From the NCBI GenBank assembly GCA_047973205.1, contig JBKEBO010000058.1, positions 5,750-69,749 on the forward strand: a stretch of 64,000 bases of DNA, given 5' to 3'. Shown one piece after another: positions 4,862 through 53,884 of the stretch. The notes below the pieces were generated by a model, which made no database searches, was not told the origin of the DNA, and worked only from the letters and a program-made list of their open reading frames with translations. The DNA comes from Alphaproteobacteria bacterium (GTDB taxonomy: Bacteria > Pseudomonadota > Alphaproteobacteria > JBKEAR01). The translations under genes and the position numbers were made by a program. How positions within the stretch are numbered: position 1 is the first letter of the stretch; every line of letters starts with the position of its first letter.

Positions 4862-5902
4862 ATGTTACTAAAGAAATATGTAGCCATTTTTACCAGCATG
4901 TTTGCTTTTTCGCAAGGTGGTATTGCGGGTGCAAATGTGCAAACACAAAAATTAGATAGCCTTGAAGATAAAGAAAAAAGCATTGCCCTTATAGCCTCCT
5001 ATGGAGCAACAGGCTCTATTGAGCCTTTAAAAGATGCGATTAAGCAAGGCTTGGATAATGAGTTAAGCATTAATCAAATAAAGGAAGTTTTGGTACAGCT
5101 ATACGCCTATGCAGGTTTTCCCCGTAGTCTTAATGCTTTAGGGGTGCTTATGGAAGTATCAAAGCAAAATCCAGAAGCTAAAATGGGTAAAGAAGGCAAA
5201 GCCTTACCTGCAGATACTGATAAATGGGCTTATGGAAATAATGTGCAAATAGAGCTAACTGGGAGCGAAGTTAAGGGCGGACTTATGGATTTTTCTCCTG
5301 CTATTGATACTTTTTTAAAGGAGCATCTATTTGCAGATATCTTTGGCCGTGATGTTCTTTCGTATAAGGAGCGAGAAATTGCCACTCTAGCTATTTTAGC
5401 AAGTATTGATGGCCTGCAATCACAATTACAATCCCATGTTAATATCTCTAAGCATATTGGCATAGATGAAGCCAAGATTAATGATATTATTACTTTAGCC
5501 AAAGAGCAAAGCTTTGATAGCATATTTCCTAAAGGAGAGATTAATCCTTATGGTGAATTTTTTACAGGAATAACCTATCTAACCATGTTAAGTGATGATA
5601 GCGATATGTTTAATGAACCCATAGGTCATGTAACTTTTGAGCCTTTGGCAAGAACCCATTGGCATAAACATTCAGGCGGGCAAATATTACTAGTAACTGG
5701 TGGTGAGGGTCGTTATCAGCCCCGTGGAGGCAAGGTGCAGATTTTACATAAAGGTGATGTGGTGCGGATTGAGCCTAATATCGAGCATTGGCATGGAGCT
5801 GCTCCCAATAGCTGGTTTGCCCATATTGCAACGACTCCCAATGCAGCTTTGGGTAATCAGGTTACATGGCTTGAGGCAGTAAGTGACGAACAATATCATT
5901 AA
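4862..5902 (+). CDS. Secreted fusion of a carboxymuconolactone decarboxylase (CMD/AhpD-like) domain and a cupin domain
   Basis: The 346 aa product has an N-terminal signal peptide (hydrophobic core, AGA|NV). A CMD-like middle domain follows, and a C-terminal cupin with HWHKH...G..........H-type metal ligands. A strong AAGGAG RBS precedes the start. Confidence 0.6.
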   Translation: MLLKKYVAIFTSMFAFSQGGIAGANVQTQKLDSLEDKEKSIALIASYGATGSIEPLKDAIKQGLDNELSINQIKEVLVQLYAYAGFPRSLNALGVLMEVSKQNPEAKMGKEGKALPADTDKWAYGNNVQIELTGSEVKGGLMDFSPAIDTFLKEHLFADIFGRDVLSYKEREIATLAILASIDGLQSQLQSHVNISKHIGIDEAKINDIITLAKEQSFDSIFPKGEINPYGEFFTGITYLTMLSDDSDMFNEPIGHVTFEPLARTHWHKHSGGQILLVTGGEGRYQPRGGKVQILHKGDVVRIEPNIEHWHGAAPNSWFAHIATTPNAALGNQVTWLEAVSDEQYH

Positions 5903-11277: not shown

Positions 11278-11613
11278 ATGAGTGAACTCCCCCCATGTCC
11301 CAAATGTCAATCCACTTACGTTTATGAGGATGGTGAGCTACTCATATGCCCAGAATGTGCCCATGAGTGGGGTAAGAATGCATCGGGTAATGATAGCGAA
11401 AATATAGTTCGAGATGCCAATGGTGCAGAGCTGAAAGACGGCGATACCGTAAGTGTTATCAAGGACTTAAAAGTTAAAGGCTCATCTTCGGTTGTTAAAG
11501 TGGGTACTAAAGTCAAAAATATTCGCCTTGTTGATGGTGACCATGATATTGACTGTAAAATTCCAGGCATTGGAGCAATGGGACTAAAATCTGAATTTGT
11601 AAAAAAAGTATAG
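11278..11613 (+). CDS. phnA: PhnA/YjdC-family zinc-ribbon protein
   Basis: The 111 aa product has an N-terminal CPKC...CPEC zinc ribbon and a conserved C-terminal block ([10 protein letters not shown]...[20 protein letters not shown]) as in E. coli PhnA. It stands alone, without other phn genes. Confidence 0.85.
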
Positions 11614-11619
11614 AGTATA

Positions 11620-11860
11620 AAAGTACAGATTTTTGTCCAAATTTATCCATAAAAAACCTGTTTCTGTCCATTTTTGTCCATTTTTTATCCCATCATAGCC
11701 AAAAAATTCCTGATAATGTCCATGCCTCTATAAAAGTTTCCCTTTTAAAGAGTGACAGTTTTGTGTCGATTCCTGTAAAAATTTGGATATAAATGGGTAA
11801 AAAATGGCAAATATGGGCAAATATGGGCAAATATGGGTAAAATCCTATTTAAGTCATATA
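11620..11860. repeat. Intergenic repetitive element, copy 1. On the left are 10-bp-phased (T)TGTCCA/TATCCA words. On the right are five tandem 10-mers aAATGGGyAA at 11791-11840.
   Basis: Read directly from the sequence. GTCCA/ATCCA words recur about every 10 bp across 11631-11690. The right-hand 10-mers are aaatgggtaa/aaaatggcaa/atatgggcaa/atatgggcaa/atatgggtaa. The architecture matches 27290-27500. Confidence 0.5.
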
Positions 11861-12667
11861 TTACAAATATTCAAAATGGCTGATAGGGCCATGGCCTTTG
11901 CCCATCTGCCAATGTTGTGAGGTTTGAATGGCATGGCTGATATACTGCTTAGCCTCTTTAACAGCGGTACGGATATCCTTACCAAGAGCCATTTGTGCAG
12001 CAATGGCTGAGGAAAGTGAGCAACCTGTACCATGGGTATTTTTGCTATTGATTCGCTTTTGTTCAAAAGAGTGAATATGACCATCGGCTAAGTATAAGTA
12101 ATCAATAGACTTTTCACCTTTTTGGTGACCACCTTTAATGAGAATATTTAGGCTTTTTCCAATATTTTTTGCTAAGATTTCAGCATCTTCCTCATCTTCT
12201 AAATCAGCTAAAATTTGAGCCTCAGGCAGGTTGGGGGTGACGAGGGTTGCTAGGGGGAGCAGCTGCTCCTTAAGGCTTGTAATTGCATCCATTTCTAGTA
12301 AAGGAGCCCCTGCTTTAGAAACCATTACAGGGTCTAAAATAATGGGGGGAAGTTTGGGTTGAGCCTTTAAGAAGCTAGCGACAGTTTGCACCATATCCTT
12401 ATCACCAAGCATGCCGATTTTAATGGCATCAATGGGCATATCTTCAAAAACGGCTTTTAGTTGTGAAGTTATTGTTTCTAAAGGAGTTTTATGAATATCT
12501 GTGACAGCATAAGAATTTTGTGCCGTAATGGCGGTAATGACCGATAAGCCATAACAACCATTGGCCGATATGCTCTTAAGGTCGGCTTGTATGCCTGCTC
12601 CACCACCAGAATCTGAGCCTGCAATACTCAGAACACAGCAGGGTCGGTTGCCTTTAATGAGTGCCAT
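11861..12667 (-). CDS. thiD: Hydroxymethylpyrimidine/phosphomethylpyrimidine kinase ThiD
   Basis: The 268 aa product has VLSIAGSDSGGGAGIQADLK and GTGC motifs of the PfkB/ThiD family. Confidence 0.9.
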   Translation of the reverse strand: MALIKGNRPCCVLSIAGSDSGGGAGIQADLKSISANGCYGLSVITAITAQNSYAVTDIHKTPLETITSQLKAVFEDMPIDAIKIGMLGDKDMVQTVASFLKAQPKLPPIILDPVMVSKAGAPLLEMDAITSLKEQLLPLATLVTPNLPEAQILADLEDEEDAEILAKNIGKSLNILIKGGHQKGEKSIDYLYLADGHIHSFEQKRINSKNTHGTGCSLSSAIAAQMALGKDIRTAVKEAKQYISHAIQTSQHWQMGKGHGPISHFEYL

Positions 12668-18375: not shown

Positions 18376-18747
18376 ATGATGAAAAGAAGTTTTCCTTTTA
18401 TGGCTCTTTTGGGCTTGTCTTTTCTTACCGCCTGTACTTCAGTGCTAGACTTTAATAAAAAAGAAGAGCCTGTGCATCCTGTAGTTGGCAAATGGGCTGA
18501 GGCAGGTAAGTGTGATTCTATGCCTTGGATTTTTGGGCCAAAATCTGTCCGCTGGGGTAATAATGGCGGCCATTGGGTCGATATGGGTAGCAAGATTAAG
18601 GTTGTCAGTTATATTGCCCAAGAGCAAGCAACTATGACCCTTTACTTCACAAGGCCACAAAATAATGTGATGCGAACTCTCTCGTTAAATTATGGGGGAA
18701 CATCTATGTCTAATCGAGGAGGCAAGCTAACAAGATGTTCAAATTAA
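18376..18747 (+). CDS. Small lipoprotein, paralogue 1 of a 4-gene array (conserved Cys pair)
   Basis: The product has a lipobox at LTAC, a VGKW…C block and a C-terminal Cys (TRCSN). The next gene overlaps by 13 nt. Confidence 0.7.
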   Translation: MMKRSFPFMALLGLSFLTACTSVLDFNKKEEPVHPVVGKWAEAGKCDSMPWIFGPKSVRWGNNGGHWVDMGSKIKVVSYIAQEQATMTLYFTRPQNNVMRTLSLNYGGTSMSNRGGKLTRCSN

Positions 18748-19091
18748 AATTATTGATTATGTTTTTGCTCAGCTTATCTCTTGGGGCATGTGTTCATACT
18801 CAAAAGTCAAAGAATCCAATTGTCGGAAAATGGACAACATCATCTTGCAGCAATGCAATAACTCTACAAAGTAATCATCAAGTTCAAGGAAGTGTTTATG
18901 GCAATTGGGAGGAGCGAGAGCATATTGTTGAGCTTAATCTAGCCAAAAATATTAAAGGACAACGGCAATATATTCAAGTGCTACTTGCTAAGCCAAACCA
19001 AGAGAAAGTCAAGGTCTTACGCGTGATTTATCCCTTTGGAACATGGCAAGGCGGTTATAAATCAGGCGATATTCTTCGGAAATGTCGCTAG
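18735..19091 (+). CDS. Small lipoprotein, paralogue 2
   Basis: The product has a lipobox at LGAC, VGKWTTSSCS, and a C-terminal RKCR. Confidence 0.7.
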   Translation: MFKLKLLIMFLLSLSLGACVHTQKSKNPIVGKWTTSSCSNAITLQSNHQVQGSVYGNWEEREHIVELNLAKNIKGQRQYIQVLLAKPNQEKVKVLRVIYPFGTWQGGYKSGDILRKCR

Positions 19092-19254
19092 TATTTTAGC
19101 TATTGTAAAAAAGTAACACCCATCATAATAGATAATATATTTATCGATATTTTTTCTGTTTCTTTTTGATTTTTCTCTTTTTTTATGTAAAATATTTTTA
19201 CTCACACAAGGGAGACTTAAAAAAATTAACGATAAGGTTTGGAGAATATTTATT

Positions 19255-19635
19255 ATGAAAAAATTATTAGCATTATCAGCTATTGCAGGAATGATTGTTG
19301 TTTCAGGATGTACATCGGAGTTCGGTGGCTCATCATCATCTGGAATAGTCGGTACATATTCCGATAGTTGCTCAGCACCACAGTCAAGCTTCATCTTTAG
19401 AAATGGCGGCTCAGGAACCATTCAGGCTCGTGGTATGACACGCAATTTCACATGGACTCAAAATGGCCGTACGGCTTATGTGTCTGTACCAACATCAGGC
19501 GGTACTCCTGCCCAAACTTATGTGCTTAGCCGTACACAAAGCGGTGTTTATCTTTCTGGACTTACCGTTAATGGCAAACAACAGAATTTAACCGCTGTTC
19601 CTGCAAGTGAAAGAACAAAGACAAAATGTTCATAA
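19255..19635 (+). CDS. Small lipoprotein, paralogue 3
   Basis: The product has a lipobox at VSGC, VGTYSDSCS, and a C-terminal TKCS. A GGAGAA RBS precedes the start. Confidence 0.7.
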   Translation: MKKLLALSAIAGMIVVSGCTSEFGGSSSSGIVGTYSDSCSAPQSSFIFRNGGSGTIQARGMTRNFTWTQNGRTAYVSVPTSGGTPAQTYVLSRTQSGVYLSGLTVNGKQQNLTAVPASERTKTKCS

Positions 19636-20003
19636 AAAAGCATTTTGCTTTACTTTTTATTGTAAGCTTTTTAAGCGGGTGTACTCTTATGGGTACACCT
19701 TCTTTTTTAGAAGATACTTCCGTATCGGTAAAAACTGCTCAGGGGCGTTATGCCAATGATTGTTCCAATCCAAGAGAAGTCATAATTCTTAAAAAAGATG
19801 GGACGGCAATAGCCAAATATAAGAACCAAGTGAAGACTTTTTCTTGGCAACAAAAGGGAAGCGAAGTCATCTTCACCCATAGCGACCAAGGACATGTGGT
19901 AAGCCGCATTGATGAGCATGGTAATTTGAACTTATATCAACATCCCAGAGCCAAAGGACATTTCATCCCCCCCAAAGACCTTATACGTTATAAATGTTTG
20001 TAA
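19626..20003 (+). CDS. Small lipoprotein, paralogue 4
   Basis: The product has a lipobox at LSGC, GRYANDCS, and a C-terminal YKCL. It overlaps paralogue 3 by 10 nt. Confidence 0.7.
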   Translation: MFIKKHFALLFIVSFLSGCTLMGTPSFLEDTSVSVKTAQGRYANDCSNPREVIILKKDGTAIAKYKNQVKTFSWQQKGSEVIFTHSDQGHVVSRIDEHGNLNLYQHPRAKGHFIPPKDLIRYKCL

Positions 20004-25572: not shown

Positions 25573-27210
<1,638 letters not shown>

Positions 27211-27244
27211 GCTTTCCCACACATATAACCTTATACATAAAAAA

Positions 27245-27271
27245 CCTCTCCTATTTTGGAGAGGTTTTTTT
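27245..27271 (+). terminator. Rho-independent terminator of groESL
   Basis: The stem is cctctcc-tatttt-ggagagg, followed by 7 T's. Confidence 0.8.
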
Positions 27272-27289
27272 GTGGTTCTTATAACCTCA

Positions 27290-27500
27290 ATTTGGCAAAT
27301 TCTGGCAAGATTTGTCCATAAATATCCATTTTTGTCCATAAATTTTCAAACCACAACCAAAATAAGCCAAAATAAGCCAACCTAAAAGCCCTCCACCCTT
27401 GCCTAGGAGGATGGATAAAGATGGACAAAGATGGATGAGAGTGGATAAACTTTGCCAAAATTTGGATAAAAATGGATATTTATGGACAAGTTCGGACATA
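27290..27500. repeat. Intergenic repetitive element, copy 2. It holds three 10-bp-phased TTTGTCCATA/AATATCCATT words, two tandem aataagccaa units, and at least seven 10-bp-phased ATGGA(T/C)AAAG-type words in the opposite orientation.
   Basis: Read directly from the sequence. TCCAT starts at 27315/27325/27335. ATGGA or GTGGA starts at 27411/27421/27431/27441/27472/27482. Outer ttggcaaat…tttgccaaaa words form an imperfect palindrome of about 190 bp. Confidence 0.5.
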
Positions 27501-27534
27501 AAAAAAGCCCCTAAAATATTTTAAAAGGGGCTCT
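27499..27534 (-). terminator. Rho-independent terminator of aspA (minus strand)
   Basis: The stem is agcccct/aggggct with a 13-nt loop, followed on the minus strand by a T7 run. Confidence 0.7.
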
Positions 27535-27551
27535 TTTGGATTATCTTATTC

Positions 27552-28985
27552 TTACTTCTTTTTTGCTATTTTAATATCTGTGTGGGCATGGGGAGCAAGC
27601 ATTTTCTCGGGCTGGAGAATATCATCCACCTGCTCTTGGGTCAAAAGTCCACGTTCTAACACAAGGTCAACAACTTTTTGCCCTGTCTTTAATGATGTTT
27701 TCGCAATATCTGCAGCCGCCTCATAACCGATATAAGGATTAAGAGCTGTAGCCAAACCTGTTGAATTTTCGATATATTCTCGGCATACATCCTCATTAGC
27801 CGTAATCCCACGAATACAGTTATCCACCAAAGTACGACACCCTCTGTTAATACCATTCATCGAACTTAAAATTGAATATAAAATCACAGGCTCCATGGCA
27901 TTAAGTTCCAGCTGACCCGCCTCTGCAGCCATGGTTACAGTAATATCACGACCAATAACCGTAAAGGCTATTTGGTTCATCAATTCAGGAATAACAGGGT
28001 TCACTTTGCCTGGCATAATCGAAGAGCCTGGAAGCATGGGTGGAAGGTTAATCTCGTTCAGCCCTGTACGTGGCCCCATGGATAACAGACGGAGATCATT
28101 GGATATTTTAGAAAGCTTAACGGCTAATCGTTTAAGCACACCCGAAAGGGTTACATAAGCCCCTGTATCTTGTGTGGCTTCGACCAAGTTACCTGCTAAA
28201 GTGAGGGGTAAGCTTGAGATAAGTGCAAGCTCGCTAATGGCTTTTTGGGCATATTCTGGATGGGTGTTAATACCTGTACCAATGGCAGTTGCCCCAAGGT
28301 TCATCTCTCGCATAAGGCGGAAAGACGATTTTAGCCTTGCGATTTCTTCAGCCAAGGTTGTTGACCATGCCATAAATTCTTGGCCCAAAGTCATGGGTAC
28401 GGCATCTTGTAGCTGAGTTCGTCCCATCTTAAGAACATGCTTAAACTCCTCGCCTTTATCATATAAAGCACTGGAGATATACTCCACATCATCTTGAGAA
28501 CGTTTAAGCATAGTCATCATGGCAATCCGCATGGCAGTGGGGTAAACATCGTTGGTTGACTGGCTCATATTCACATCGTTATTGGGGTGGCAATATTGAT
28601 ATTCACCCTTTTTATGACCTAAGATTTCAAGGGCACGATTCGCAATGACTTCATTGGCATTCATATTAGTCGAAGTTCCTGCTCCGCCTTGGATTGCATC
28701 AACCACAAATTGGTCATTCCATTTACCATCGGCAACCTCTAAAGAGGCCTCTAAAATGGCCTTGCCTCTTTCTTCATCAAGCCCACCAACGGCCATATTC
28801 GCTTTAGTACAGGCATATTTTACCCAGCCTAAAGCACGAACCAAATCACGGTAATGCCCAATAGGCACACCTGAGACATGGTAGATATTTTTTGCCCTTT
28901 GGGTTTGTACGCCCCAATAGGCATCTGCAGGAACATCAATGGTTCCTAGGCTATCTTTTTCTGTACGAAATTCTTGTTTTGACAT
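27552..28985 (-). CDS. aspA: Aspartate ammonia-lyase
   Basis: The 477 aa product has the fumarate-lyase signature GSSIMPGKVNP. AspA-type blocks (GEYQY.HPNNDVN.SQSTNDVYPTA) distinguish it from FumC. Confidence 0.9.
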   Translation of the reverse strand: MSKQEFRTEKDSLGTIDVPADAYWGVQTQRAKNIYHVSGVPIGHYRDLVRALGWVKYACTKANMAVGGLDEERGKAILEASLEVADGKWNDQFVVDAIQGGAGTSTNMNANEVIANRALEILGHKKGEYQYCHPNNDVNMSQSTNDVYPTAMRIAMMTMLKRSQDDVEYISSALYDKGEEFKHVLKMGRTQLQDAVPMTLGQEFMAWSTTLAEEIARLKSSFRLMREMNLGATAIGTGINTHPEYAQKAISELALISSLPLTLAGNLVEATQDTGAYVTLSGVLKRLAVKLSKISNDLRLLSMGPRTGLNEINLPPMLPGSSIMPGKVNPVIPELMNQIAFTVIGRDITVTMAAEAGQLELNAMEPVILYSILSSMNGINRGCRTLVDNCIRGITANEDVCREYIENSTGLATALNPYIGYEAAADIAKTSLKTGQKVVDLVLERGLLTQEQVDDILQPEKMLAPHAHTDIKIAKKK

Positions 28986-52333: not shown

Positions 52334-53884
52334 ATGGCTGATAACATCAAAAATAACGCAAATCCTAGTAAAAGCACAGATGATAAAAAGGTCAAAGAGG
52401 CTAAGGATAAGGTAGAATCCGATGTAATAAAAAAGGATCAAAAAGATCCAAAATCATCTATAAATGATCCGAAGCCATCTATAAAAGAAGAAAAAAAACC
52501 AGTAAAGGTTGAGTCTTCGAAAGATAAAAAACAGCCTCCTCAGCCAATAAAAAATGAGCAAAAATTACCAAAAGATGAACCTAAAGTGGTGAAAGATGAG
52601 CCGAAACCACCAAAGAATGAGTTGAAGCCACAAAAAAGCGGGCAAAAAAAGTCAATCTCAGGATTTTTATGGCCTGTTGTTTGTTCAGTTGCAACTGCAG
52701 GTGGTTTAGTTGGGACGCAAAGTCTATGGATGAAAGATGTTGCTAGCATTGATAACCCTCAAGTTTCTTCTGAGACAGTTCAAATGGTAGAAACCAACAA
52801 AACAGCCATAGCTCAGCTTGCAGCTCAGTCAGGTGAAATTACCAACTTAAAATCTCAAATAGATGCTCTTACGGCAAAACTCCAAGAAAAAACGGAGGCA
52901 GCGGCGGTTGTAGTTGATACTCCTGAAACAGCCACAACGGTTGCAGAAGGTGCGGAAGATACCACCGAAGTGCCTGCAAAAGAAGTTACGGAAACTGTAG
53001 CAGAGGCAACAGAGGTTATTACTGATACGAGAGAAATAATGGATGCAAAAGTTACGGAAACTGTAGATGATGCAACAAAAATAGTTGATACAGCCACAAC
53101 AAAAACTGTAGATAATGGTGTTGATGATGCCGTTGAAACAGCAGGAATTCCTGAAGATGTATTATCAGCTGAGCCTGCAGTGGTTCAATCACAAGCAACA
53201 GCTGCTTTAGAGGCCAAAATTGCGGAGCTTTCTAAAGAAATTGCAGTCCTTAAAGAGCAACAACCACAGTTTGAAGGCTTTGAGGGAAGAGTGAGCCAAG
53301 TGGAAACACAGCTAGGGACTTTAAGCAGCTCAGTCAGTGATTTGCAATCGGGTATAAGTAGCAATAATACAGATATGGCCAAGCTTGTGGCTCTTGATAA
53401 TATTGCTCGTCAGATTGATTTAGGCCAAGATTATAGCCAGTCGCTGGATAATTTAGCAAGTGAGCTTCCTGAAGAGGCGAGTGGTGCAGTTGCGACATTA
53501 CAACAAAGTACTAAAAAATTAGCTCCTTTATATAAACTTCAGGCAAACTTTAACGATATTTCTCGTGATATTATTATTGCACAACGTAAAGAAAAAGCAG
53601 CTCAATCTGGTGATAAAAAGCAAGGGCTTCTTTCGAGCCTTAATGACCTTGTAACGGTTAGTCGCACTGATGGTGGAACAGAAGGAAGTGCAGATCGCCT
53701 TGTTTATAATATTAAACAGGCTCTACGCTCAGGTGATTTAAATGCTGTAAACCAGCTGCTTTCTTCGGCAAGTCCAGAGGTTCAAAAAGTTGTAGCCCCA
53801 TGGCAAGAACAGCTTAAAGCAAAACTTGATGCAGAGGCGGCCTTAAGTGAAATTCGTCAGCATCTTAGCGGTACAGGAGAGTAA
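52334..53884 (+). CDS. Mitofilin/Mic60-like coiled-coil inner-membrane protein (alphaproteobacterial Mic60/HemX-like homologue)
   Basis: The 516 aa product has a Lys/Pro-rich low-complexity N-terminus, a single TM (FLWPVVCSVATAGGLVG), long coiled-coil regions and a conserved C-terminal domain. It lies immediately upstream of a HemY_N-family gene, as in other alphaproteobacteria. Confidence 0.55.
   Translation: MADNIKNNANPSKSTDDKKVKEAKDKVESDVIKKDQKDPKSSINDPKPSIKEEKKPVKVESSKDKKQPPQPIKNEQKLPKDEPKVVKDEPKPPKNELKPQKSGQKKSISGFLWPVVCSVATAGGLVGTQSLWMKDVASIDNPQVSSETVQMVETNKTAIAQLAAQSGEITNLKSQIDALTAKLQEKTEAAAVVVDTPETATTVAEGAEDTTEVPAKEVTETVAEATEVITDTREIMDAKVTETVDDATKIVDTATTKTVDNGVDDAVETAGIPEDVLSAEPAVVQSQATAALEAKIAELSKEIAVLKEQQPQFEGFEGRVSQVETQLGTLSSSVSDLQSGISSNNTDMAKLVALDNIARQIDLGQDYSQSLDNLASELPEEASGAVATLQQSTKKLAPLYKLQANFNDISRDIIIAQRKEKAAQSGDKKQGLLSSLNDLVTVSRTDGGTEGSADRLVYNIKQALRSGDLNAVNQLLSSASPEVQKVVAPWQEQLKAKLDAEAALSEIRQHLSGTGE

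What the first reader, a model, noticed from the sequence alone, without database searches (positions are those of the whole stretch)
11620..11860. Novel ~200-bp intergenic element built from 10-bp-phased TCCAT/ATGGA-type words (copy 1 of 2)
After phnA, GTCCA/ATCCA words recur about every 10 bp on the left. Five perfect-register 10-mers aAATGGGyAA run in tandem from 11791 to 11840. The 10-bp (one helical turn) phasing places every word on the same face of the DNA, as in iteron or centromere-like protein-binding arrays or intrinsically bent DNA. Individual words resemble weak DnaA boxes (TTATCCATA versus TTATCCACA). The element lies in a convergent terminator region, not at a promoter.
Basis: seen in the sequence. 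Interest (0 to 1): 0.6.

Follow-up and report, generated by a model that had tools for sequence, protein, structure and literature searches.

The report
Palindromic decamer-repeat intergenic DNA element
Two spacers between convergent housekeeping genes of an uncultured alphaproteobacterium each hold a ~220-bp palindrome whose arms are rows of 10-bp-spaced TGGRYA words, a layout used by MraZ/AbrB-type DNA-binding proteins; it is real and unusual, but its binder and function are unproven.

Summary
At 11614-11860 (copy 1) and about 27285-27505 (copy 2), an unrelated 50-100-bp centre is flanked by two oppositely oriented arrays of 3-9 words (logo WWATGGRYAAAWW) spaced 10 bp apart. Word density, lag-10 periodicity, hairpin potential and predicted curvature are all window extremes.

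Same-species contigs keep the element, and one strain lacks one 10-bp unit. About 72 kb from the nearest relatives has none, and synteny is not conserved. Rfam, plasmid and phage searches find nothing.

The DnaA-box reading fails, because such boxes are not enriched. A reverse search with the word grammar retrieved 14 genuine mraZ promoters among 110 hits. The published AbrB consensus (TGGNA, 4-5-bp AT spacer, any orientation) follows the same grammar.

Copy 2 lies between two intrinsic terminators, which argues for action on DNA rather than RNA. Similar palindromic ATGGAC/GTCCAT decamer arrays are multi-copy in Parachlamydiaceae MAGs and occur in other phyla.

Best reading (confidence about 0.4): a lineage-specific dispersed palindromic repeat whose curved arms are cooperative binding platforms for an oligomeric AbrB/MraZ-type protein. 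Rivals are a selfish foldback-like MITE and bidirectional RNA termination. Binder, genome-wide copy number and function are untested.

The parts
11614..11860 (.). Copy 1, the whole phnA/yjdM-thiD spacer. The palindromic core is about 11628-11845.
   Evidence: Both strands fold as long hairpins (-62.7 and -59.6 kcal/mol, z about -4.9). The outermost matching ends are GATTTTTGTCCA (left) and the reverse complement GGATTTTACCCA (right), read from the sequence.
11626..11727 (-). Copy 1 left arm: about 7-9 words that read TGGAC/TGGAT/GGGAT on the - strand, with a mean period of 10.4 bp.
   Evidence: Lag-10 identity is 0.47. The predicted 63-bp bend is the largest of the window (about 126 degrees, centre 11660).
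11726..11768 (.). Copy 1 centre: two small local hairpins (11726-11752 and 11753-11768), with no similarity to the copy 2 centre.
   Evidence: Helix table derived from the fold. The copy 1 versus copy 2 alignment covers only the arms.
11779..11846 (+). Copy 1 right arm: six words (TGGAT, TGGGT, TGGC, TGGGC, TGGGC, TGGGT) at spacings of 10, 11, 9, 10 and 10 bp.
   Evidence: Lag-10 identity is 0.71, the window maximum.
11806..11841 (+). Near-perfect tandem decamers (GGCAAATATG x3.6) whose unit number differs between strains.
   Evidence: Tandem Repeats Finder. Contig L118 of the same species lacks exactly one 10-bp unit.
27285..27505 (.). Copy 2, between the groEL and aspA terminators.
   Evidence: Its inverted repeats are the longest in the window (44 nt at 77% and 39 nt at 85% complementarity). 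Contig L128 of the same species is identical over the part it covers.
27289..27345 (-). Copy 2 left arm: three TGGAC/TGGAT words (reading on the - strand) plus two outer GGCAA words that read on the + strand.
   Evidence: Lag-10 identity is 0.60.
27346..27405 (.). Copy 2 centre: CCAAAATAAG x2.4 and a CCTCC...GGAGG hairpin, unrelated to the copy 1 centre.
27406..27502 (+). Copy 2 right arm: eight TGGAT/TGGAC/CGGAC words at spacings of 10, 10, 10, 21, 10, 10 and 10 bp, plus one inverted TTGCC word in the 21-bp gap.
   Evidence: The predicted 63-bp bend is the second largest of the window (about 122 degrees, centre 27472).
27239..27270 (+). Context: the groEL intrinsic terminator, immediately outside the copy 2 left arm. 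It has U runs on both strands.
   Evidence: 13-pair stem followed by a T run; sequence.
27500..27540 (-). Context: a terminator-like hairpin for aspA (GCCCCT 27507-27512 pairs with AGGGGC 27526-27531, followed by T7 on the - strand), immediately outside the copy 2 right arm.
   Evidence: Read from the sequence. The consensus scan did not list it because its loop exceeds 8 nt.

Best explanation
The element acts as DNA, not as an RNA gene. It is one member of a lineage-specific, dispersed, palindromic repeat family.

Each arm is an array of 3-9 copies of the word WWATGGRYAAAWW, set one helical turn apart on intrinsically curved, AT-rich DNA. The two arms point away from a variable centre.

The most likely mechanism is cooperative, same-face binding of an oligomeric DNA-binding protein along each arm. 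The best candidate class is the swapped-hairpin SpoVT/AbrB superfamily (MraZ, AbrB-like proteins). Its characterised members read TGG-core words separated by AT-rich spacers at a 9-10-bp period, and they polymerise along multi-box DNA.

Because the arrays sit in non-promoter spacers between convergent genes, they would act as a high-capacity binding or architectural site, or a sink for the protein, rather than as an operator. The arrays grow and shrink by replication slippage, and the arms arose by inverted duplication.

Shown here: the anatomy, phasing, palindromy, position-specific conservation of the word, unit-number polymorphism, the non-promoter context, and the match of the grammar to MraZ boxes. 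Inferred: that a protein binds at all, which protein it is, and what binding achieves.
For: 1. The word is conserved position by position across 24 words in four arms at two loci whose centres and flanks are unrelated. TGG is essentially invariant (T 23/24, both G 24/24). The next base is A or G in 22/24, the next is C or T in 22/24, then A in 22/24. The spacer is A/T, where transversions are tolerated.
2. The period is 10 bp over as many as nine units, and the arms are outliers for lag-10 identity.
In 14 of them the array lies within about 100 bp upstream of an mraZ-like ORF, detected by its DxKGR motif. Six of these ORFs were confirmed as Pfam MraZ, and one is followed by mraW.
4. Two of the 14 loci, a Sphingomonadales MAG (alphaproteobacterial) and a closely similar Pseudomonadota MAG, have boxes that read NTGGGYAAA, like the copy 1 right arm.
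5. Published data agree. MraZ boxes are GTG(G/T) plus a 6-nt spacer, and MraZ subunits polymerise along four boxes (PMC12957436). AbrB binds TGGNA pairs with 4-5-bp AT-rich spacers in direct, inverted or everted orientation, and its long sites hold many motifs (PMC3738160).
6. Copy 2 is bracketed by intrinsic terminators on both sides, so it should rarely be transcribed, yet it has the most regular arrays.
7. The arms give the top two predicted 63-bp bends of the window.
8. The element is kept in same-species contigs from other sequencing runs.
Against: - No binder is identified. There is no mraZ, and no AbrB-type, rep, par or transposase family among the annotated ORFs of at least 150 aa in the window. 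ORFs of 50-150 aa were inspected only by eye.
- The genome outside the window could not be reached.
- The base before TGG is A in 18/24 words, whereas canonical MraZ boxes have G there (39/50). The fifth base is Y, not the A of the AbrB TGGNA motif.
- Known MraZ arrays have 3-4 boxes in one orientation, at PmraZ only. The triple repeat is unique in B. subtilis (bioRxiv 10.1101/2022.02.09.479790).
- About 72 kb from the nearest relatives has no such array. That pattern fits a recent selfish spread as well as a function.
- The search pattern was derived from the element, so the mraZ enrichment shows that the grammars match. It does not show binding.
- The curvature estimate uses a wedge table recalled from memory and a vector-sum approximation.
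Confidence: 0.4

Rival explanations
1. Selfish foldback-type MITE. This would be a non-autonomous mobile or slippage-driven palindrome. Its arms are tandem short repeats, as in eukaryotic Foldback elements, or are subterminal transposase-binding repeats. It persists in convergent spacers because insertions there are harmless, and it has no host function.
For: - Two copies lie in 64 kb, and both are in convergent spacers.
- The arms are true inverted duplicates that include their spacers (39 nt at 85% complementarity).
- Unit number differs between strains.
- About 72 kb of relatives has none.
- Analogous multi-copy palindromic ATGGAC arrays in Parachlamydiaceae MAGs have conserved outer inverted repeats.
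Against: - No target-site duplication is visible at either copy (sequence reading).
- The two copies share only about 70% identity, confined to the arms, and their centres are unrelated. This is unlike recent transposition.
- No transposase lies in the window or next to the analogues.
- The TGG core stays intact while the spacers have drifted, which suggests constraint.
Confidence: 0.25
2. RNA-level bidirectional terminator or 3'-end element. Each incoming convergent transcript first copies a C-rich, G-poor arm with YCC every 10 nt, which resembles a Rho loading (rut) site. It then copies the complementary arm, which closes a hairpin with a stem of about 90 bp. That hairpin could act as a pause site, an RNase III target or a barrier to 3' exonucleases.
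For: - C/G is 2.2-3.9 on the sense strand of all four arms for the incoming transcript.
- Both strands of both copies fold far better than shuffles (z from -3.9 to -4.9).
- Copy 1 has no other recognisable terminator for phnA or thiD.
- Four of four palindromes found between convergent genes have this orientation: both window copies, L031 and L111.
Against: - Copy 2 lies outside the intrinsic terminators of both neighbouring genes.
- Rut sites need no conserved word or strict 10-nt register.
- The orientation rule fails elsewhere. L027 lies between divergent genes, and the family-B palindromes place ATGGAC in the mRNA sense at a gene start.
- Neither fold shows a consistent strand preference.
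Confidence: 0.12
3. A sequence-unspecific architectural site. Phased A-tracts make curved DNA, which attracts nucleoid proteins or DNA gyrase where positive supercoils build up between convergent genes, much as BIME-2 and strong gyrase sites do. On this view the words matter only for shape.
For: - The top two predicted 63-bp bends of the window lie in the arms.
- The setting is between convergent genes, and copy 2 follows the highly expressed groESL operon.
- The architecture is symmetric.
Against: - The invariant TGG and the R/Y-restricted positions are more specific than curvature requires.
- GC-rich palindromes with the same GTCCAT word have no A-tracts.
- Other convergent junctions in the window lack the element.
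- The curvature model is approximate.
Confidence: 0.1
4. A DnaA-titrating or replication-linked cluster of weak DnaA boxes, like datA, DARS or the low-affinity arrays of oriC.
For: - One word in copy 1 (TTATCCATA) and two in copy 2 (TTATCCACT, TTATCCAAA) are one mismatch from TTATNCACA.
- The oppositely oriented arrays recall the low-affinity DnaA arrays of E. coli oriC (own knowledge).
Against: - The window shows no enrichment (86 matches against 83.6 expected) and no perfect box in either copy.
- Most words differ from the box at two or more positions.
- There is no GC-skew switch.
- The period is 10 bp rather than the 11 bp of oriC arrays.
Confidence: 0.04
5. Divergent small RNAs that sponge a GGA-binding protein of the CsrA/RsmA type. 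Each arm would be transcribed outward from the centre and would carry AUGGA motifs every 10 nt.
For: - The copy 2 right arm has nine GGA motifs followed by a terminator-like hairpin.
- The copy 1 left arm, read on the - strand, has seven.
Against: - No Rfam family matches at gathering or permissive thresholds.
- No promoter-like site lies in either centre.
- The copy 1 right arm reads GGG or GGC, not GGA.
- The motifs are not presented in hairpin loops.
Confidence: 0.03
6. A chance pattern in AT-rich intergenic DNA.
For: None beyond the AT-richness of the spacers.
Against: Shuffle controls gave zero matches. The arms are window-wide extremes for word density, periodicity and inverted repeats. 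There are two independent loci, and the element is conserved across strains.
Confidence: 0.01

Closest known systems
MraZ boxes (operator of the dcw/mra operon)
   Same: A TGG-core word followed by an A-rich spacer is repeated head-to-tail with a 10-bp period. The protein polymerises along the boxes (PMC12957436). Boxes recovered here upstream of 14 mraZ genes read AAGTGGGTAAAA. Those of a Sphingomonadales MAG and a closely similar Pseudomonadota MAG read NTGGGYAAA.
   Different: Known arrays have 3-4 boxes in one orientation and overlap the mraZ promoter. Here there are 3-9 words per arm in two opposed arms, at two loci between convergent genes with no mraZ nearby. The base before TGG is mostly A, not G, and the fourth base is mostly A, not G.
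AbrB/Abh binding sites (bipartite TGGNA)
   Same: TGG-core pentamers are separated by 4-5 bp of AT-rich spacer. Direct, inverted and everted arrangements are all used. Long sites consist of many motifs, and the TNCCA...TGGNA order equals the left-arm/right-arm order here (PMC3738160).
   Different: AbrB is a Firmicutes regulator that acts at promoters. The fifth base here is C/T followed by A, rather than A. The arrays here are longer and more regular.
REP/BIME elements, including the IHF-binding RIB/RIP class, of enterobacteria
   Same: They are dispersed, non-coding, imperfect palindromes that sit at 3' ends and between convergent genes, and they serve as protein-binding sites (gyrase, IHF, Pol I). 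This comparison rests on my own knowledge.
   Different: REP units are GC-rich stem-loops of about 35 bp with a RAYT transposase partner. They have no 10-bp word arrays. Copy number could not be counted here.
Foldback (FB) transposons and MITEs with subterminal repeat arrays
   Same: Long inverted arms are built from short tandem repeats around a variable centre, the unit number is unstable, and there is no coding capacity. This comparison rests on my own knowledge of Drosophila FB and of Ac/Ds and En/Spm subterminal motifs.
   Different: Those are eukaryotic, or when bacterial they show target-site duplications and near-identical copies. Neither feature is seen here.
Plasmid iterons and centromeres (for example R1 parC and R388 stbDRs)
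   Same: Two blocks of helically phased short repeats are bound cooperatively on one face of the DNA (own knowledge).
   Different: Those blocks are direct repeats flanking a promoter, next to rep or par genes on plasmids. Here the blocks are inverted, chromosomal and far from any such gene. There is no blastn match in 72,556 plasmids (copy 2 as query) or 50,697 phages (copy 1 as query).
Palindromic ATGGAC/GTCCAT decamer arrays in Parachlamydiaceae MAGs (not described in the literature, as far as I could find)
   Same: The architecture is the same (GTCCAT words on the left, ATGGAC words on the right, period 9-10 bp). They are multi-copy and intergenic, and two of them lie between convergent genes.
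   Different: In the divergent-type copies the arms nearly abut (5-9 bp between them). Units are near-perfect and number up to 13. Conserved outer inverted repeats are present. Only the core word resembles the window element, and my search pattern selected for that word.

Membership tests
MraZ-box array | Boxes repeated head-to-tail with a 10-bp period (4-nt core plus 6-nt spacer) | tested here: met
   Word spacings are 10 bp (occasionally 9, 11, 12 or 21) in all four arms. The reference definition comes from PMC12957436.
MraZ-box array | Core GTG(G/T), or TGGGN in E. coli | tested here: inconclusive
   TGG is invariant, but the preceding base is A in 18/24 words (G in 1/24) and the following base is A in 17/24. 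Boxes upstream of 14 mraZ genes have G at both positions, in 39/50 and 36/50. The two alphaproteobacterial-type promoters also lack the leading G.
MraZ-box array | Three to four boxes in one orientation | tested here: not met
   There are 3-9 words per arm, and the two arms have opposite orientation.
MraZ-box array | Lies directly upstream of mraZ and overlaps its promoter | tested here: not met
   No MraZ motif appears in any frame of the window. Both copies lie between convergent genes.
MraZ-box array | Bound by MraZ | not testable with these tools
   This needs EMSA, footprinting or DAP-seq. Whether the MAG encodes MraZ could not be determined.
AbrB-type TGGNA site | TGGNA motifs separated by 4-5 bp of AT-rich spacer, in any relative orientation | tested here: inconclusive
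   The words are TGG-R-Y-A followed by a 4-bp A/T spacer. The fifth base is C/T in 22/24 words, not A. The definition comes from PMC3738160.
AbrB-type TGGNA site | An AbrB/SpoVT-domain protein is encoded by the organism | not testable with these tools
   No such family was found among the window ORFs that were scanned. Smaller ORFs were inspected only by eye.
REP/BIME | Extragenic, at 3' ends or between convergent genes | tested here: met
   Both copies lie between convergent genes.
REP/BIME | GC-rich palindromic units of about 35 bp with a conserved 5' tetranucleotide and a RAYT partner | tested here: not met
   The arms are AT-rich decamer arrays. No transposase family was found in the window.
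REP/BIME | Tens to hundreds of copies per genome | not testable with these tools
   Only 64 kb of the genome is available, and it holds 2 copies.
MITE / foldback element | Terminal inverted repeats, no coding capacity, under about 600 bp | tested here: met
   The arms are 77-85% complementary. The elements are 220-247 bp long. The only ORFs are short ones spanning the repeats.
MITE / foldback element | Target-site duplication at the ends | tested here: not met
   Inspection of the flanks found no direct repeat at either copy. The AT-rich flanks make this test weak.
MITE / foldback element | Near-identical copies, and filled versus empty sites among relatives | tested here: inconclusive
   The copies share about 70% identity in the arms only. 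Synteny at both loci is lost in relatives, so no empty site could be examined.
Iteron origin / plasmid centromere | Adjacent rep or par genes, or a plasmid or phage context | tested here: not met
   The neighbours are housekeeping genes. There is no blastn match in plasmids (copy 2 as query) or phages (copy 1 as query).
DnaA-box cluster (oriC, datA, DARS) | Several boxes at or within one mismatch of TTATNCACA | tested here: not met
   The window has 86 matches against 83.6 expected. Copy 1 has one, and neither copy has a perfect box.
CsrB/Rsm-type sponge RNA | Match to a described RNA family, own promoter, GGA in every repeat | tested here: not met
   Rfam gives no hit. No promoter-like site lies in the centres. 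The copy 1 right arm reads GGG or GGC.
Rho-dependent terminator (rut site) | A C-rich, G-poor stretch of about 80 nt on the transcript | tested here: met
   C/G is 2.2-3.9 for the incoming transcript in all four arms. This is composition only.
Rho-dependent terminator (rut site) | Termination depends on Rho | not testable with these tools
   This needs transcript 3'-end mapping with and without Rho inhibition.

The most novel reading that the evidence does not exclude
The arms are a second, high-capacity class of genomic targets for an MraZ/AbrB-superfamily protein, lying outside any promoter. They would be chromosomal decoy or architectural arrays that titrate or organise the protein. The palindromic GTCCAT/ATGGAC decamer arrays seen in Parachlamydiaceae, Bacteroidales and GC-rich metagenome lineages would belong to the same undescribed class of prokaryotic foldback elements, built from binding words for this fold.
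Probability: 0.15. Interest if true: 0.75.

Novelty: new variant of a known kind. Interest (0 to 1): 0.45.

Why it matters
If a protein does polymerise on these arms, the element would be a chromosomal, non-promoter array of up to nine phased sites for a swapped-hairpin regulator.

MraZ is nearly universal, yet its role beyond repressing its own operon is still debated. Known genomes have a single 3-4-box target. Extra high-capacity arrays would provide a natural titration system, and a direct test of how MraZ/AbrB filaments read long DNA.

If instead it is a selfish foldback element, it documents a bacterial counterpart of eukaryotic Foldback-type repeats. The recurrence of such arrays in unrelated phyla would then need a mechanistic explanation.

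Either way, the element is a ready-made, strongly curved, 10-bp-phased natural DNA for binding and bending studies.

Tried and rejected
- **Rfam.** Gathering thresholds on the whole window and permissive thresholds on both copies gave only sub-threshold plant-miRNA-like hairpin noise.
- **tRNA/tmRNA scan.** None found.
- **Promoter and terminator scans.** No promoter-like site lies in either centre.
- **DnaA boxes.** Not enriched. There is no GC-skew switch.
- **Uptake-signal and Chi words.** Absent or uninformative.
- **Orthologous-locus comparison.** This failed. Relatives with ThiD at 71% identity and AspA at 72-89% have different neighbours at both loci. The GroEL search was swamped by alphaproteobacterial sequences at about 78% identity. 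An exact GroES look-up gave a contig too short to reach copy 2.
- **Metagenome scan for the palindromic frame.** It was dominated by an unrelated ATCCATGGAT 10-bp satellite, because that unit contains both words. This was a flaw in my pattern.
- **Literature search for the words.** It returned only primers.
- **blastn.** Copy 2 against plasmids and copy 1 against phages gave no match.
- **A home-made dinucleotide-shuffle fold script.** It timed out and was replaced by the fold tool.
- **An RNA-sense orientation rule (GUCCAU always in the transcript).** It looked promising at 5 of 6 cases, but other families contradicted it.
- **Target-site duplications.** Sought by eye at both copies; none found.
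Full report
**Observation**

After the stop codon of a YjdM/PhnA zinc-ribbon gene (11278-11613, + strand; Pfam families), GTCCA/ATCCA words recur at 11635, 11645, 11666, 11676, 11688, 11697 and 11718. From 11791 to 11840 five in-register decamers follow: AAATGGGTAA, AAAATGGCAA, ATATGGGCAA twice, and ATATGGGTAA. The spacer ends at the stop codon of thiD (11861-12667, - strand), so the two genes converge.

The element is therefore a long imperfect palindrome. The promised second copy lies at about 27285-27505, between groEL (25576-27210, + strand) and an aspartate ammonia-lyase gene (27552-28985, - strand).

**Is it more than chance?**

- TGGRYA words on either strand occur 176 times in 64 kb. 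The two copies hold 10 and 9 per 250 bp, and the next-best place holds 4.
- A three-word pattern with up to two mismatches matches four times, against none in 100 dinucleotide-preserving shuffles.
- Self-identity at a lag of 10 bp is 0.47-0.71 in the four arms, against 0.26 +/- 0.07 for the window. The copy-1 right arm is the window maximum.
- The two copies hold the four longest local inverted repeats of the window.
- Both strands of both copies fold as hairpins with stems of about 90 bp and z-scores of -3.9 to -4.9.
- A vector-sum curvature estimate puts the largest and second-largest 63-bp bends of the window in the copy-1 left arm and the copy-2 right arm, at about 126 and 122 degrees. I recalled the Bolshoy wedge angles from memory, so this is indicative only.

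**Anatomy**

Each copy has a centre of 50-100 bp flanked by arms of 3-9 words. Read outward from the centre, 24 words give the logo W W A T G G R Y A A A W W:

- TGG is essentially invariant (T in 23/24, both G in 24/24).
- The next position is A or G in 22/24.
- The next is C or T in 22/24.
- Then comes A in 22/24.
- The spacer is A/T, and transversions are tolerated there.

The two copies align only in their arms, at about 70% identity, with a shared block AAAATTTGGATAWAAATGGRTA. The alignment scores 33-34 against 18.5 +/- 2.6 for shuffles. The centres are unrelated. Within copy 2, a three-word block including its spacers is duplicated in inverted orientation (39 nt at 85% complementarity). 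The arms are therefore inverted duplicates by descent, later modified by slippage.

**Source and comparative evidence**

ThiD, AspA and GroEL are 100% identical to proteins of an NCBI record named 'MAG: Alphaproteobacteria bacterium', on a contig of 76,906 bp. GroEL is at most about 80% identical to any other listed hit, so the lineage is deep. The window carries ordinary metabolic and housekeeping genes. Among the ORFs scanned there is no transposase, integrase, rep, par or AbrB-type family.

Contigs of the same species from four sequencing runs keep both copies:

- L001 and L002 differ by a few substitutions, some inside words (GTCCA to ATCCA; GGGAT to GGAAT or GAGAT).
- L118 lacks exactly one decamer of the near-perfect tandem at 11806-11841.
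- L128 is identical over the part of copy 2 it covers.

The nearest relatives available have different neighbours at both loci, so no orthologous spacer exists to align. They are L117 (ThiD 71% identical) and L119-L126 (AspA 72-89%). About 72 kb of their DNA contains no word cluster, no lag-10 array and only one ordinary hairpin. Other convergent junctions in the window carry ordinary hairpins, not the element.

**What the words resemble**

The DnaA-box lead does not hold. TTATNCACA with at most one mismatch occurs 86 times, against 83.6 expected. Copy 1 has a single such word, neither copy has a perfect box, and there is no origin-like skew switch.

A reverse search was more informative. I scanned one genome per GTDB species for TGGRYAAANNTGGRYAAANNTGGRY. 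In 14 of them the array lies within about 100 bp upstream of an ORF carrying the MraZ DxKGR motif. Six of these ORFs were confirmed as Pfam MraZ, and the one tested for its neighbour is followed by mraW.

The logo of 50 such boxes is AAGTGGGTAAAA. Two of the loci, a Sphingomonadales MAG and a closely similar Pseudomonadota MAG, lack the leading G and read NTGGGYAAA, like the copy-1 right arm.

Published work fits this:

- MraZ boxes are described as GTG(G/T) plus six spacer bases. There are three in most bacteria and four in Mycoplasma, with one MraZ subunit per box in an opened ring (PMC12957436).
- In B. subtilis the triple repeat is unique to the mra promoter (bioRxiv 10.1101/2022.02.09.479790).
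- AbrB carries the same swapped-hairpin DNA-binding fold. It binds TGGNA motifs separated by 4-5 bp of AT-rich spacer in direct, inverted or everted orientation, and its long sites are tiled with motifs (PMC3738160).

The grammar of the element is therefore the grammar of this protein superfamily: a TGG core, an AT-rich spacer and a 9-10-bp period. Membership in the MraZ-box family fails on location, box number, orientation and the leading G.

**Similar architectures elsewhere**

Among the same 110 loci, seven come from two Parachlamydiaceae MAGs (L027, L031, L035, L044, L060, L111 and L107). They show GTCCAT decamers on one side and ATGGAC decamers on the other, often as near-perfect tandems of up to 13 units. 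In the divergent-type copies only 5-9 bp separate the arms. Several have a conserved outer inverted repeat, CCCTCACAGnAAAnCGTnTT. No transposase-like ORF was evident by eye among the adjacent ORFs. Bacteroidales MAGs show CTGGACA and GTGGACA versions.

Most hits are an unrelated ATCCATGGAT satellite that my pattern failed to exclude. A minority are true palindromes, including GC-rich families built on ATCCCCGTCC or ATCCGTGTCC. The latter abut the start codon of GxxExxY genes. In viral contigs such arrays sit next to integrases, tRNA ends or HTH genes, like arm-type sites or operators.

Because my patterns fixed the word, these hits show that the architecture recurs. They do not show that the word is special.

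**RNA-level readings**

No Rfam family matches, and no promoter-like site lies in either centre. The copy-1 right arm reads GGG or GGC, not the GGA needed for a CsrA-type sponge.

Each arm is C-rich and G-poor on the strand copied by the incoming convergent transcript (C/G 2.2-3.9). A Rho-loading or hairpin-terminator role is therefore compositionally possible, and copy 1 has no other terminator. All four palindromes found between convergent genes share this orientation.

Three things argue against it. Copy 2 lies outside the intrinsic terminators of both neighbours (the groEL terminator; the aspA hairpin read from the sequence), yet it has the most regular arrays. The orientation rule breaks in other families. 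Rut sites need neither a conserved word nor a strict register.

**Synthesis**

The best-supported reading is that the element acts as DNA. It is a lineage-specific, dispersed palindromic repeat, and its curved arms are platforms for cooperative, same-face binding of an oligomeric protein. An MraZ/AbrB-type protein is the best candidate class. The arrays change by slippage and sit where they cannot disturb promoters.

Shown here:
- the anatomy, phasing and palindromy;
- the position-specific conservation of the word;
- the strain polymorphism in unit number;
- the non-promoter, terminator-insulated context;
- the match of the grammar to MraZ boxes.

Inferred:
- that a protein binds at all;
- which protein it is;
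- that binding has a consequence (a sink or an architectural site).

The main rival is a selfish foldback-type MITE without host function. It is compatible with the restricted distribution and the polymorphism. It is weakened by the lack of target-site duplications, by the divergence of the copies, and by the intact TGG cores. The two readings are not exclusive, since one concerns origin and the other concerns interaction.

**Novelty and limits**

I found no description of such an element. There is no Rfam family, no blastn match in plasmids (copy 2 as query) or phages (copy 1 as query), and no literature hit for the words. As a dispersed intergenic palindrome it is a new variant of a known kind, not a new category.

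The decisive unknowns could not be addressed with the sequence reachable here:
- the genome-wide copy number;
- the organism's own mraZ promoter and its AbrB-domain genes;
- protein occupancy;
- transcription across the element.

Noticed in passing
window 18376-20003: Four tandem, same-strand genes encode paralogous small putative lipoproteins (118-126 aa, each with a signal peptide and a lipobox-like Cys). Two were scanned against Pfam, and the only hit was a faint DUF5640 match for one of them.
   Followed up: partly
window 52441-52635, inside ORF 52334-53884: Two blocks of 21-bp tandem repeats (AAAAGATCCAAAACCATCTAT and a variant) lie in the 5' part of a 516-aa ORF with no significant Pfam family. 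The ORF sits directly upstream of a HemY_N/TPR gene. The region is also among the most curved in the window by my estimate. The position next to hemY recalls alphaproteobacterial Mic60-like genes; that link is my own knowledge and was not tested.
   Followed up: partly
L027, L031, L035, L044, L060, L111 (Parachlamydiaceae MAG MGR_bin366); L107 (MGR_bin127): These MAGs hold a multi-copy family of palindromes made of GTCCAT/ATGGAC decamers, with up to 13 near-perfect units. Several have a conserved outer inverted repeat, CCCTCACAGnAAAnCGTnTT. One lies upstream of clpB. Another adjoins a truncated paralogue whose ATG sits inside a word.
   Followed up: partly
L162, L165, L170, L188 (family ATCCGTGTCC); L168, L200, L232-L234 (family ATCCCCGTCC); L250; L195/L226: These are GC-rich metagenome palindromes with two or three GTCCAT decamers per arm around a central GC-rich hairpin. 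In L165, L170 and L188 the palindrome abuts a GxxExxY gene (TIGR04256, confirmed for L165) whose start codon lies in or next to the last ATGGAC word. The L044 array abuts a four-helix-bundle gene (TIGR02436 plus TIGR04258).
   Followed up: partly
L132-L136, L138, L154 and many other loci from Ga0114995, Ga0114997 and Ga0115000: These short metagenome contigs carry an abundant 10-bp satellite, ATCCATGGAT, whose unit is itself a palindrome. It is probably eukaryotic. It swamped my palindromic search pattern.
   Followed up: no
L098 about 5128-5155 (Mongoliitalea lutea): Three TGTGGATAA words lie at 10-bp spacing, with further TTATCCAC-like words upstream. They equal perfect DnaA boxes and also fit the MraZ-box grammar, which shows how alike the two motifs are. 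No mraZ motif lies within 600 bp.
   Followed up: no
L057 196-330 (Rhodospirillales MAG, 66% GC): About eight TGGAC/TGGAT words, all in one orientation, lie just upstream of an ORF that looks like an NAD kinase by eye (no family scan was run). An AT-rich, promoter-like island precedes them in an otherwise GC-rich contig.
   Followed up: partly
L005, L006, L129, L130 (IMG/VR contigs): GTCCAT/ATGGAC decamer arrays lie next to integrase-like ORFs, a tRNA-like 3' end, or between an HTH-like ORF and its neighbour (all judged by eye). The placement looks like integrase arm-type sites or operators.
   Followed up: partly
window 25576-27210 (GroEL): GroEL of the source MAG is at most about 80% identical to any other listed GroEL, which points to a deep, poorly sampled alphaproteobacterial lineage with 39% GC.
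   Followed up: no
L036 2546-2570 (Rickettsiales MAG): Three phased ACCCA/ATCCA words fill the short spacer between what look, by eye, like ybaB- and recR-like genes. This may be chance or a small array.
   Followed up: no
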